Part shown: positions 1 to 1,632 of the stretch, one piece after another
How the letters are laid out: the number at the start of each line of letters is the position of its first letter
Numbering within the stretch: the first letter of the stretch is position 1
Virus record (IMG/VR): IMGVR_UViG_3300039332_000015
Direction: 5' to 3' (one strand)
Length of the DNA stretch: 4,047 bases
From: a virus
Taxonomy: Duplodnaviria > Heunggongvirae > Uroviricota > Caudoviricetes
Position numbers and translations under genes: made by a program
Notes under the pieces: generated by a model
Databases searched by the model: none
Seen by the model: the letters and a program-made list of their open reading frames with translations, nothing else
Told to the model about the DNA's origin: nothing

Positions 1-1632
1 ATCGACAACGACCGCGAAGACTGGAAGCGTATCTCGGCATCAATGCGCAAACAGCCTGATGCCCTTCGCTACGACCGCCAGACTATTTTTGGCCTTGTCC
101 GTGAACGTCCGATCGACATTCACAAAGACCCTGTGGCACTGAACAAATACATTACTGAATACCTGACTACAAAGGGCGTGTTTGAAGATGAAGGAACAAA
201 TCAGAGCGCAACTGATACTCTCTCGTCGCCAGTACCAGAAACTGATGCAGTGGAAACGGCAATTCCGGACAACGAAAAAACCGAATGCAAAGTGGAAGTC
301 GAACCATCTGTAGAACGTGAGGGGCCGTTCTACTTCCTCTTCACCGACAAGGATGGCGAAAAATACGGTCGCGCAAACAAACTTTCTGGTCTGGATAAGG
401 CGCTGTCTGCTGGGGCTACTGAAATCACGAAAGAAGAATATTTCGCCCGCAAAAACGGTACATACTCAGGTTCACAACAAAATACTGGTGCATCTGACAC
501 GACCGCACAACCAGGGTCAGTAAAAGTTACCGCTGACGAAGTAAACAAAATTATGCAGGCAGCCAATATCAGCCAGCCTGACGCCGATGAACTGCTTGCA
601 GTATCACGTGGTGAATTTGTTGAAGGGATTAGCGACCCGAATGATCCGAAATGGGTTAAGGGGAACCAGACCCGCGATTCTGTGAACCAGAACCAGCAAG
701 AAACGGAACAGAACGACCAGAAAGCGGAACAAAACAGCCCAAATGCGTTACAAAACGAGCCAGAAACGAAACAGCCTGAATCAGTGGCGCAACAGGAAGT
801 GGAAAAAGTCTGCACCGCCTGCGGTCAGACCGGCGGCGGCAACTGCCCTGATTGTGGCGCGGTGATGGGCGACGCAACATACCAAGAAACATTCGATGAA
901 GAGTATCAGGTTGAAGTTCAGGAAGATGATCCGGAGGAAATGGAAGGCGCTGAACATCCACACAAGGAGAACACTGGCGGCAATCAGCATCACGATAGCG
1001 ATAATGAAACTGGCGAGACGGCAGATCACTCAATTAAGGTGAACGGTCATCAAGAAATCACATCCACCAGCAGGACGTGTGACCATCTAATGATCGACCT
1101 TGAAACCATGGGAAAAAATCCTGATGCCCCGATCATCTCAATAGGTGCAATATTTTTCGATCCGCAAACCGGAGATATGGGACCGGAATTTAGTAAGACT
1201 ATCGATCTGGAAACTGCTGGCGGAGTCATTGATCGGGACACCATTAAATGGTGGCTTAAGCAATCACGCGAAGCGCAATCTGCCATTATGACCGATGAAA
1301 TCCCGTTAGATGATGCACTGTTACAATTGCGGGAATTTATCGACGAAAACTCCGGTGAATTTTTTGTTCAGGTTTGGGGAAATGGAGCCAACTTCGACAA
1401 CACGATTTTGCGCCGTTCATACGAACGGCAGGGGATCCCCTGCCCGTGGCGTTACTACAACGATCGCGATGTACGCACAATCGTTGAGCTGGGGAAAGCC
1501 ATAGACTTCGATGCCAGAACGGCTATTCCATTCGAAGGTGAGCGCCATAATGCACTTGATGACGCCCGTTACCAGGCAAAATACGTTTCAGCTATCTGGC
1601 AAAAACTGATCCCAAATCAGGCTGATTTTTAA
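1..1632 (+). CDS. Phage exonuclease-family protein, 5'-partial; C-terminal DnaQ-like DEDDh 3'-5' exonuclease domain, N-terminal low-complexity region with a C4 zinc-ribbon-like motif
   Basis: The track ORF 43..1632 has no in-frame stop back to base 1 (IDNDREDWKRISAS precedes the first Met) and no Shine-Dalgarno before the ATG at 43, so the true start is probably upstream of the window. The C-terminal ~180 aa carry the three exonuclease motifs in order: MIDLETMG (Exo I, D/E), VWGNGANFDNTIL (Exo II, D) and HNALDDARYQ (Exo III, H-x4-D). CTACGQTGGGNCPDCG (nt 811..855) is a CxxC-x8-CxxC motif. The region between is Q/E/N-rich and acidic. Stop is TAA at 1630..1632. Confidence 0.8.
   Translation: MDNDREDWKRISASMRKQPDALRYDRQTIFGLVRERPIDIHKDPVALNKYITEYLTTKGVFEDEGTNQSATDTLSSPVPETDAVETAIPDNEKTECKVEVEPSVEREGPFYFLFTDKDGEKYGRANKLSGLDKALSAGATEITKEEYFARKNGTYSGSQQNTGASDTTAQPGSVKVTADEVNKIMQAANISQPDADELLAVSRGEFVEGISDPNDPKWVKGNQTRDSVNQNQQETEQNDQKAEQNSPNALQNEPETKQPESVAQQEVEKVCTACGQTGGGNCPDCGAVMGDATYQETFDEEYQVEVQEDDPEEMEGAEHPHKENTGGNQHHDSDNETGETADHSIKVNGHQEITSTSRTCDHLMIDLETMGKNPDAPIISIGAIFFDPQTGDMGPEFSKTIDLETAGGVIDRDTIKWWLKQSREAQSAIMTDEIPLDDALLQLREFIDENSGEFFVQVWGNGANFDNTILRRSYERQGIPCPWRYYNDRDVRTIVELGKAIDFDARTAIPFEGERHNALDDARYQAKYVSAIWQKLIPNQADF

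What the first reader, a model, noticed from the sequence alone, without database searches (positions are those of the whole stretch)
1..1632. Large exonuclease protein with an uncharacterised N-terminal extension (disordered Q/E-rich region plus zinc ribbon) fused to a DEDDh exonuclease
Only the C-terminal third is a recognisable DnaQ/RNase T-like 3'-5' exonuclease. The upstream part, over 350 aa and continuing beyond the window, contains a CxxC-x8-CxxC motif (811..855), a Q/N/E-rich low-complexity tract (about 660..780) and a strongly acidic segment (about 880..1060) of unknown function. It sits where lambdoid phages carry recombination and host-interaction genes. The substrate is unknown; DNA end processing for recombination, or degradation of small nucleic-acid signals, are speculative possibilities that nothing in the sequence distinguishes.
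Basis: partly seen in the sequence, partly recalled or inferred. Interest (0 to 1): 0.45.

Follow-up and report, generated by a model that had tools for sequence, protein, structure and literature searches.

The report
RecE-like scaffold carrying a DexA-type exonuclease
This is most of a very common but unstudied prophage gene whose "mystery" front part is the same non-catalytic scaffold found in the recombination enzyme RecE, with RecE's 5'-3' nuclease replaced by a 3'-5' exonuclease of the phage T4 DexA type.

Summary
Window 1-1632 encodes the last 543 residues of an 823-aa protein, the last gene of the leftward operon before xis and int in an ompW-integrating lambdoid prophage. Only residues 362-533 (nt 1084-1599) match a known domain: Rv2179c-like DEDDh, with all five catalytic residues intact and T4 DexA as the closest solved structure.

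The Q/N/E tract, the four-Cys motif (x7 spacing, not x8) and the acidic segment are all present. The region is not an orphan. It is homologous to E. coli K-12 RecE residues 313-591, and at the DNA level nt 613-1016 are about 85% identical to a Rac-type recE. RecE's non-catalytic region is itself of unknown function.

Across 132 cluster representatives the scaffold is mosaic. Two head types combine with a RecE-type PD-(D/E)XK nuclease, the DEDDh nuclease, a possibly Rad52-like domain, or a short tail with no recognised nuclease. All six DEDDh contexts examined lack an adjacent recT.

The gene occurs in 3,609 of 5,426 complete E. coli genomes. I found no experimental study of it.

Most likely it is a scaffold-tethered 3'-5' DNA exonuclease made during lytic growth. 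The substrate and the scaffold's partner are unknown. Verdict: new variant of a known kind, moderate interest.

The parts
1..1632 (+). C-terminal 543 codons plus stop of an 823-aa 'exonuclease' gene (older name exoO). The first 280 codons lie upstream of the window.
   Evidence: The ORF is open from nt 1. Full-length genes are at L001:5161-7632, L002:7161-9632, L007:6161-8632 and L013:3161-5632. It matches phrog_2082 end to end.
1..189 (+). Module B: C-terminal part of a helical domain shared with the RecE middle region.
   Evidence: AF2 helices at residues 6-16, 26-34 and 44-58, pLDDT 87-94. In the full-length context this is the helical domain 247-338. It aligns to K-12 RecE from residue 313. 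It is 25-30% identical in RecE-head hybrids and 76-78% in A-head relatives.
190..315 (+). Acidic linker 1, predicted disordered.
   Evidence: pLDDT about 30 for residues 64-105. Poorly conserved.
316..471 (+). Module C: small beta-beta-alpha-beta-alpha domain (EGPFYFLF...KEEYFARKNG), slightly basic.
   Evidence: AF2 pLDDT about 90 for residues 108-155. It occurs in A-head family members that carry any of the C-terminal domain types.
571..660 (+). Module D: the most widely conserved motif of the family (DADxLLAxSRGEFVEGISDPNDPKW). Probably a short binding motif within a flexible region.
   Evidence: 53-86% identity in eight of the nine relatives compared (90% in P0121; absent from P0241). It is found with both head types and all C-terminal types. 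Low pLDDT apart from a short helix at 195-202.
661..795 (+). Q/N/E-rich low-complexity tract.
   Evidence: 54% Q+N+E over nt 660-780. pLDDT below 50. Present in Rac-type RecE.
811..855 (+). CxxC-x7-CxxC four-Cys motif, a putative zinc knuckle.
   Evidence: Coordinates confirmed. 125 of 141 homologues keep all four Cys, and 10 have C->Y at the third. Identical motif in K-12 and Rac-SA53 RecE. Pfam DZR is not significant (E 0.13). pLDDT about 50.
856..1071 (+). Conserved GAVMGDATYQETFDEE stretch followed by an acidic, His-rich disordered tail that runs up to the nuclease junction.
   Evidence: Net charge -17 over nt 880-1060. pLDDT 29-35. The alignment to K-12 RecE ends at window residue 345 / RecE residue 591, 15 residues before the crystallised nuclease domain starts (residue 606, own recollection).
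1064..1071 (-). Chi octamer (GCTGGTGG on the minus strand) at the linker/nuclease junction.
   Evidence: Conserved at the same place in L001, L002 and L007.
1084..1599 (+). DEDDh 3'-5' exonuclease domain (Pfam Rv2179c-like, T4 DexA family). Catalytic residues: D366 (nt 1096-1098), E368 (1102-1104), D466 (1396-1398), H516 (1546-1548), D521 (1561-1563).
   Evidence: Pfam E 8.5e-68. The five residues are invariant in the alignment with DexA. PDB sequence hit 8KEL. Foldseek top hit 8KEL, then RNase T, Orn and REXO2.
1697..1945 (+). Excisionase (context).
   Evidence: Pfam Exc E 1.3e-07. Annotated as excisionase in L002 and L007.
1923..3053 (+). Lambda-type tyrosine integrase (context).
   Evidence: Arm-DNA-bind_1 plus Phage_integrase.

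Best explanation
The ORF is the C-terminal two thirds of an 823-aa protein. It is the last gene before xis-int in the leftward (repressor-side) operon of an ompW-integrating lambdoid prophage.

It is a mosaic member of the RecE (exonuclease VIII) scaffold family. It has a folded head (an alpha/beta domain and a helical domain upstream of the window, then helical module B and small module C inside the window). This is followed by a long acidic, largely disordered linker carrying a conserved motif (GISDPNDPKW), a four-Cys knuckle and an acidic tail. The protein ends in a DexA/Rv2179c-type DEDDh exonuclease, at the position where RecE has its PD-(D/E)XK 5'-3' nuclease.

Shown:
- the domain composition;
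- the homology to RecE's non-catalytic region;
- an intact DEDDh active site;
- the absence of an adjacent annealase gene;
- the very wide occurrence of the gene.

Inferred:
- The protein is made from the phage's early leftward promoter after induction or infection. This follows from gene order and strand only.
- Its catalytic domain removes nucleotides from 3' ends of DNA using two metal ions.
- The scaffold delivers that activity to the same, still unknown, partner or DNA structure to which RecE's N-terminal region delivers its nuclease.
- It trims or processes DNA ends during recombination-dependent replication in phages that lack their own annealase and carry Chi sites, working alongside host RecBCD and RecA rather than as one half of an exonuclease/annealase pair.
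For: Identity of the catalytic domain:
- Pfam PF16473, 228 bits.
- D-x-E, D and H-x4-D are all invariant in the alignment with T4-type DexA.
- The closest solved structure is DexA, by sequence and by fold.
- DexA and the E. coli homologue EcD are DNA 3'-5' exonucleases (PMC12153337).

Scaffold homology:
- NF007259 model positions 270-603, E 1.7e-81.
- K-12 RecE 313-591, E 5e-63.
- Rac-SA53 RecE, 59% identity over 191 aa including the Cys motif and the acidic tail.
- DNA-level identity of 84-86% to recE over nt 613-1027.

Mosaicism:
- A head or RecE head with DEDDh: P0121, P0123, P0151, P0231.
- A head with RecE-type nuclease: P0153, P0205, P0209.
- P0123 is 99% identical in the nuclease domain but only 25% identical in module B.

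Context: the order is dicB, DUF1482, exo, xis, int, with no recT, in L001, L002, L007, L011, L013 and the window. In Rac the order is recE, recT.

The whole phage mEp460 has no annotated annealase and carries 9 Chi sites against about 1.5 expected. There are three Chi sites in the window. This matches the 'no Rec module, Chi-rich' class, and the note that DnaQ-type nuclease genes occur near int, in PMC12315714.

Selection: the catalytic motifs are intact in 92 of 98 DEDDh-bearing homologues. A copy covering at least 80% of the query is present in 3,609 of 5,426 genomes.
Against: - No biochemical or genetic data exist for this protein; literature searches found none.
- The Pfam family is named after an exoribonuclease, and the fold neighbours include RNase T, Orn and REXO2. 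An RNA or nanoRNA substrate is therefore not excluded.
- 3'-5' exonucleases 'usually inhibit homologous recombination' (wording of PMC12315714). A pro-recombination role is therefore not the default expectation.
- The scaffold's function is unknown even in RecE (PMC11611040).
- Fold searches of the head found nothing informative.
- Timing of expression is inferred from gene order only.
Confidence: 0.55

Rival explanations
1. A prophage-encoded exclusion nuclease of the 'HREX' type. The DEDDh domain would selectively degrade the modified (5hmC-type) DNA of superinfecting T-even phages and protect the lysogen, as reported for the E. coli DexA homologue EcD.
For: It is in the same Pfam family and fold as DexA and EcD. 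PMC12153337 reports that plasmid-borne EcD digests T4 DNA and protects cells. Prophages often carry exclusion genes.
Against: - EcD is a different, stand-alone homologue. Its primers encode MIDTET... and ...TIPETYD.
- DexA W152, reported as needed for 5hmC recognition, aligns to Tyr here, and D169 is not clearly conserved (PMC12153337).
- The gene lies on the same strand downstream of the repressor-side genes, next to xis-int. By analogy with lambda's pL operon this would be silent in a lysogen.
- The fusion to a RecE scaffold is unexplained by this model.
- No PADLOC system match beyond a generic DEDDh hit of 28 bits.
Confidence: 0.15
2. An RNA-directed or small-nucleotide-directed exonuclease. 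It would be a 3'-5' exoribonuclease or nanoRNase that trims RNAs, degrades RNA or msDNA-type molecules, or removes signalling oligonucleotides during lytic growth (an anti-defence role).
For: The Pfam family is defined by the Rv2179c exoribonuclease. Structural neighbours include RNase T, oligoribonuclease (including a pGG complex) and REXO2.
Against: - The nearest characterised relatives by both sequence and fold are the DNA exonucleases DexA and EcD.
- The scaffold is otherwise attached to DNA-recombination domains: the RecE nuclease and a possible Rad52-like domain.
- No similarity to known anti-CBASS or anti-Pycsar enzymes was seen in any library.
Confidence: 0.17
3. A product of prophage mosaicism with little function of its own. 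Recombination within the conserved linker DNA joined a RecE-family head to a stand-alone phage exonuclease gene, and the fusion is carried along passively in (often defective) prophages.
For: - Stand-alone versions of the same exonuclease, about 190 aa long, exist in the same operon of other lambdoid phages.
- There are clear intragenic crossovers.
- Deletion fusions to RecT and to integrase exist (P0166, P0154).
- Some copies carry a damaged Cys motif.
- A Chi site sits at the junction.
Against: - The full 823-aa frame is intact in viable phages (mEp460, HannyBb, Tritos).
- It is present in 3,609 complete genomes.
- The catalytic motifs are kept in 92 of 98 sequences.
- Divergent relatives at 44-62% identity keep the same architecture.
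Confidence: 0.08

Closest known systems
RecE / exonuclease VIII of the Rac prophage (E. coli K-12 b1350; NCBIfam NF007259)
   Same: - Same operon position: after kil/dicB-type genes and before xis-int.
- Homologous non-catalytic region: K-12 RecE 313-591 aligns to window residues 18-345.
- Same motif D, Q/N/E tract, CxxC-x7-CxxC motif and acidic tail, 75-88% identical in some RecE-type proteins.
- The domain junction is at the same place.
   Different: - The catalytic domain is DEDDh (3'-5') instead of PD-(D/E)XK (5'-3').
- The N-terminal head is a different sequence type, with no PF06630.
- No recT follows the gene.
- The whole-protein score against the RecE model is 275 bits against a cutoff of 1269.
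Phage T4 DexA (PDB 8KEL/8KEN) and its E. coli homologue EcD ('HREX', PMC12153337)
   Same: DEDDh fold and all five catalytic residues. DexA is the best match among solved structures both by sequence (E 5.7e-06) and by fold (E 1.2e-08).
   Different: - Only 21-30% identity.
- DexA and EcD are stand-alone proteins of about 200-227 aa, with no scaffold.
- DexA's extra loops are absent.
- W152 aligns to Tyr, and D169 is not clearly conserved.
Stand-alone Rv2179c-like exonucleases of lambdoid phages (e.g. PhiR55_1 XSB43120.1, YDC107_1 AUO37512.1)
   Same: 54-61% identical to the window's nuclease domain. They lie on the repressor side of the genome: PhiR55_1 downstream of cI, YDC107_1 downstream of a cro-like gene.
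   Different: 190-200 aa, with no RecE-type head or linker.
'RecE-2' proteins and 'DnaQ-like nucleases' of lambdoid phages noted in PMC12315714 (Genome Res 2025)
   Same: That survey records DnaQ-type nuclease genes near int in lambdoid early-left operons. It also records RecE-related proteins that lack a nuclease domain. This is the same family landscape as seen.
   Different: In the passages I read, the paper does not describe the fusion of the RecE scaffold to the DnaQ-type domain. It leaves domain shuffling 'beyond the scope'.
Mycobacterium tuberculosis Rv2179c (founder of Pfam PF16473)
   Same: Same Pfam family.
   Different: It is a stand-alone bacterial exoribonuclease. There was no phmmer hit to it among PDB sequences at E<=1. 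The substrate may differ.

Membership tests
DEDDh (DnaQ-like) exonucleases, Pfam PF16473 Rv2179c-like | Profile match above the curated threshold | tested here: met
   228 bits against a cutoff of 27; E 8.5e-68; profile positions 2-177 of 177.
DEDDh (DnaQ-like) exonucleases, Pfam PF16473 Rv2179c-like | Exo I D-x-E, Exo II D and Exo III H-x4-D catalytic residues | tested here: met
   D366, E368, D466, H516 and D521 are invariant in the alignment with DexA. These correspond to the residues listed as catalytic in PMC12153337.
DEDDh (DnaQ-like) exonucleases, Pfam PF16473 Rv2179c-like | RNase H-like alpha/beta fold | tested here: met
   AF2 model with block-mean pLDDT mostly 70-91 over the domain. 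Foldseek top hits are DexA, RNase T, Orn, REXO2 and DnaQ domains, at probability 1.00.
DEDDh (DnaQ-like) exonucleases, Pfam PF16473 Rv2179c-like | Metal-dependent 3'-5' exonuclease activity | not testable with these tools
   Needs an enzyme assay.
RecE / exodeoxyribonuclease VIII (NCBIfam NF007259 equivalog) | Whole-protein score above the equivalog cutoff | tested here: not met
   274.6 bits against a cutoff of 1269. Only model positions 270-603 match.
RecE / exodeoxyribonuclease VIII (NCBIfam NF007259 equivalog) | C-terminal PD-(D/E)XK 5'-3' nuclease domain | tested here: not met
   No DUF3799/PDDEXK match. The C-terminus is DEDDh. Rac-SA53 RecE has DUF3799.
RecE / exodeoxyribonuclease VIII (NCBIfam NF007259 equivalog) | N-terminal Exonuc_VIII domain (PF06630) | tested here: not met
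   Absent from the full-length homologue. hhalign of the A head against the RecE head gives only 7% probability. Sister hybrids such as P0123 do carry it.
RecE / exodeoxyribonuclease VIII (NCBIfam NF007259 equivalog) | Homologous non-catalytic middle region and linker | tested here: met
RecE / exodeoxyribonuclease VIII (NCBIfam NF007259 equivalog) | Adjacent recT annealase gene | tested here: not met
   xis follows directly in the window and in L001, L002, L007, L011 and L013.
HREX exonucleases (DexA dimer-state / EcD) | Residues reported for 5hmC recognition (DexA W152 and D169) | tested here: not met
   W152 aligns to Tyr. D169 aligns to a non-acidic position. The alignment in the D169 loop is uncertain.
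HREX exonucleases (DexA dimer-state / EcD) | Selective digestion of 5hmC DNA and protection against T4 | not testable with these tools
   Needs biochemistry and plating assays.
Zinc ribbon / zinc knuckle | Four Cys in two CxxC pairs, conserved, and folding as a knuckle | tested here: inconclusive
   The motif is present and kept in 125 of 141 homologues. Natural C->Y and C->S variants exist. Pfam DZR gives E 0.13. AF2 pLDDT is about 50.
Known anti-phage defence systems (PADLOC 2.0.0) | Match to a system-specific model | tested here: not met
   No hit for the full-length protein. The isolated domain hits only the generic CRISPR-associated DEDDh model (28 bits).

The most novel reading that the evidence does not exclude
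The RecE-family non-catalytic region would be a general adaptor that phages use to deliver interchangeable DNA-transaction domains to one common cellular target. The domains seen are a 5'-3' nuclease, a 3'-5' nuclease, a possibly Rad52-like annealase, or none. The DEDDh version would then define a previously undescribed, annealase-independent end-processing function, a 'RecE of opposite polarity'. It would work with host RecBCD-Chi and RecA in the many lambdoid phages that have no Rec module of their own.
Probability: 0.22. Interest if true: 0.65.

Novelty: new variant of a known kind. Interest (0 to 1): 0.42.

Why it matters
The function of RecE's large N-terminal region is unresolved. It is known only to boost linear-linear recombination, the basis of RecET direct cloning.

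The same scaffold is naturally joined to nucleases of opposite polarity, and perhaps to an annealase. This suggests that the scaffold acts independently of the catalytic chemistry, for example by targeting or tethering. It also provides natural chimeras with which to test that idea.

The gene is present in about two thirds of complete E. coli genomes, often in several copies, yet I found no experimental study of it. Several records annotate it as 'exodeoxyribonuclease VIII', which is wrong for the catalytic domain and its polarity.

It may also bear on how Chi-rich lambdoid phages without a Rec module replicate and recombine.

Tried and rejected
- Rfam scan of the window: no RNA family.
- Promoter/terminator scan: nothing above shuffled expectation in or around the gene.
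- BFVD viral structure search: no hit with E < 0.2.
- The AFDB50 library was unavailable.
- hhalign of the A head against the RecE PF06630 head: co-linear but only 7% probability, so a deep relationship is undecided.
- PDB profile search with the third C-terminal domain: no hit. Pfam gives only a sub-threshold Rad52_Rad22 hit (E 0.0025, 18.2 bits against 20.3), so 'annealase' stays tentative.
- PADLOC: no defence-system membership.
- EcD from the HREX paper is not this protein, judged from its primers.
- Literature searches for direct work on this gene (exoO, CP-933O/P exonuclease) found only incidental mentions.
- The Fu et al. 2012 paper on full-length RecE is not held.
- The newer Pfam families PF27430 and PF27432, seen in precomputed annotation, appear from the pattern of partial proteins to lie in the N-terminal region outside the window. 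Their names could not be looked up.
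Full report
**What is in the window.** Frame 1 is open from base 1 to a stop at 1630-1632. It is followed by an excisionase (1697-1945), a lambda-type integrase (1923-3053) and the last 43 codons of ompW on the other strand. Annotated records show that the complete gene is 2472 nt / 823 aa, so the window holds residues 281-823. These records are phage mEp460_ev081 (L001), E. coli 2013C-3181 (L002), Ecol_316 (L007, 99.8% identical DNA) and E. albertii NBRC 107761 (L013, a near-identical gene). 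In every context the order is repressor-side genes, dicB, DUF1482, this gene, xis, int. It is therefore the last gene before xis-int on the repressor side, at the position occupied by recE-recT in Rac.

**Checking the observation.**
- Pfam recognises only PF16473 (Rv2179c-like DEDDh exonuclease), at window residues 362-533 = nt 1084-1599 (E 8.5e-68).
- The motif CTACGQTGGGNCPDC occupies nt 811-855 as stated, but the spacing is x7, not x8.
- nt 660-780 is 54% Q/N/E. nt 880-1060 has a net charge of -17 over 60 residues. The whole 361-residue non-catalytic stretch has net charge -38.
- An AlphaFold2 model of the 543-aa window protein gives pLDDT below 50 for residues 64-105, 159-177, 189-195, 197-270 and 285-357. 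The Cys motif reaches only about 50.

**The catalytic domain.**
- The five DEDDh residues (D366, E368, D466, H516, D521; nt 1096, 1102, 1396, 1546, 1561) are invariant in an alignment that runs from this protein, through stand-alone lambdoid-phage exonucleases, to T4-type DexA.
- The only solved structures found by sequence are 8KEL and 8KEN, which are T4 DexA. They are also the top Foldseek hits, ahead of RNase T, oligoribonuclease, REXO2 and DnaQ domains.
- DexA is a 3'-5' DNA exonuclease. An E. coli homologue, EcD, was reported to digest 5hmC DNA and to protect against T4 (PMC12153337).
- EcD is a different, stand-alone protein, judged from its cloning primers.
- The residues proposed for 5hmC recognition are not clearly kept here. 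W152 aligns to Tyr, and D169 is not conserved.
- The domain occurs in 1,276 phage records. These include stand-alone forms of about 190 aa at 54-61% identity in lambdoid phages.

**The 'uncharacterised extension' is RecE's non-catalytic region.**
- Residues 245-626 of the full protein match the NCBIfam exodeoxyribonuclease VIII model at positions 270-603 (E 1.7e-81). The whole-protein score is 275 bits, far below the equivalog cutoff of 1269.
- Window residues 18-345 align to E. coli K-12 RecE residues 313-591 (E 5e-63).
- The stretch from motif D through the Q/N/E tract, the Cys motif and the acidic tail is 59% identical to Rac-SA53 RecE. It is 75-88% identical to other RecE-type heads.
- At the DNA level, nt 613-1016 are 85.6% identical to a Rac-type recE gene (Rac-SA53), and nt 752-1027 are 84.2% identical to the recE of an E. 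coli chromosome.
- The alignment ends at RecE residue 591, 15 residues before the crystallised nuclease domain begins (residue 606, from my recollection of PDB 3H4R). The catalytic domain has therefore been exchanged close to the domain junction.
[quoted passage not shown] 2012).

**A mosaic family.** A search of 1.84 billion cluster representatives with the 361-aa non-catalytic part found only 132 proteins, so the family is narrow. Species seen are Escherichia, Shigella and Pectobacterium, with Gifsy-1 of Salmonella mentioned in the literature (PMC12315714).

Mapping modules with phmmer and Pfam shows two head types: the A type of this protein, and the PF06630 type of RecE. These are combined with four C-terminal types.
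- RecE-type PD-(D/E)XK nuclease, for example P0153, P0205 and P0209 with the A head.
- DEDDh, for example P0121 with the A head, and P0123, P0151 and P0231 with the RecE head.
- A domain of about 290 aa with no Pfam family, whose core gives a sub-threshold Rad52_Rad22 hit (E 0.0025). In Pectobacterium phage ZF40 it is followed by a Sipho_Gp157 / 'Mu Gam-like' gene.
- A short tail in which none of my reference domains was found (not separately scanned against Pfam), probably the 'RecE-2' proteins of PMC12315714.

P0123 is 99% identical to the window in the nuclease domain but only 25% identical in module B. This shows a recent intragenic crossover near motif D. Motif D (RGEFVEGISDPNDPKW) is the most widely kept element of the family.

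**Context and likely role.** None of the six DEDDh-type contexts examined has a recT or any other annealase next to the gene. The complete phage mEp460 has no annotated annealase at all. It carries 9 Chi sites against about 1.5 expected from composition. The window has three Chi octamers in one orientation, where 0.10 would be expected. One is conserved at the linker/nuclease junction.

This matches a class of lambdoid phages described in 2025 that lack a Rec module, are rich in Chi and are helped by RecBCD. The same paper notes DnaQ-type nuclease genes near int (PMC12315714).

I therefore think the protein is a scaffold-tethered 3'-5' DNA exonuclease made during lytic growth, which processes DNA ends alongside host recombination functions. 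It does not look like one half of an exonuclease/annealase pair. That step is inference.

Rivals:
- a 5hmC-directed exclusion nuclease like EcD;
- an RNA-directed or oligonucleotide-directed exonuclease;
- a passively carried mosaic.

PADLOC gives no system match.

**Prevalence and novelty.** A copy covering at least 80% of nt 1-1632 is present in 3,609 of 5,426 complete E. coli genomes. The median is 2 places per genome and the maximum is 9. It has its own PHROG (phrog_2082). It is annotated variously as 'exonuclease', '3'-5' exonuclease' or, wrongly for its catalytic domain, 'exodeoxyribonuclease VIII'. I found no experimental study of it.

The gene itself is therefore ordinary and catalogued. 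What I did not find described in the papers read is that it is a RecE-family scaffold carrying a nuclease of opposite polarity, and that the scaffold is shared with other C-terminal domains. I file it as a new variant of a known kind, with moderate interest.

Noticed in passing
window 1064-1071, 1653-1660, 3428-3435 (all minus strand): Three Chi octamers (GCTGGTGG) in one orientation within 4 kb, where 0.10 would be expected by chance. The first lies at the linker/nuclease domain junction of the gene and is conserved in three homologous loci. Phage mEp460 has 9 Chi sites against about 1.5 expected and no annotated annealase gene.
   Followed up: partly
window 3099-3230 (-), 3328-3555 (+), about 3969-4047 (-): Only the last 43 codons of ompW (…DPWVFMFSAGYRF) follow int. 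Next come a DinI-like remnant and the 3' end of an S6-family autotransporter peptidase, as in E. coli 2013C-3181. In strain Ecol_316 an intact ompW follows int. A second element therefore appears to have been inserted or rearranged at this att site.
   Followed up: partly
P0171, P0182, P0185, P0187, P0227, P0229, P0234, P0246; L008:3714-5879 (phage ZF40 gp07): Some scaffold-family proteins end in a domain of about 290 aa with no Pfam family. PHROGs label it 'exonuclease', but its core gives a sub-threshold Rad52_Rad22 hit. It also occurs as a stand-alone protein in many Vibrio and Pseudomonas phages. It may be a mis-annotated single-strand annealing protein.
   Followed up: partly
P0128, P0129, P0135, P0146, P0173 (C-terminal tails): This variant of the scaffold ends, after the acidic tail, in a short conserved segment (…IAAxxGLCANPA…). 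No recognised nuclease domain was found in it. It probably corresponds to the 'RecE-2' proteins mentioned in PMC12315714.
   Followed up: no
P0166, P0154: These look like deletion fusions in degraded prophages. In P0166 the RecE scaffold is joined in frame to RecT within the Cys motif. In P0154 an A-B head is joined to an integrase.
   Followed up: no
window 844-846 (third Cys); L002:7161-9632: Natural variants of the four-Cys motif exist. Ten cluster representatives have C->Y at the third Cys, and E. coli 2013C-3181 has C->S. That copy also carries unusual substitutions in the exonuclease domain and may be decaying.
   Followed up: partly
records: Several phage records annotate this DEDDh-type gene as 'exodeoxyribonuclease VIII'. 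That implies the wrong catalytic domain and the wrong polarity.
   Followed up: yes
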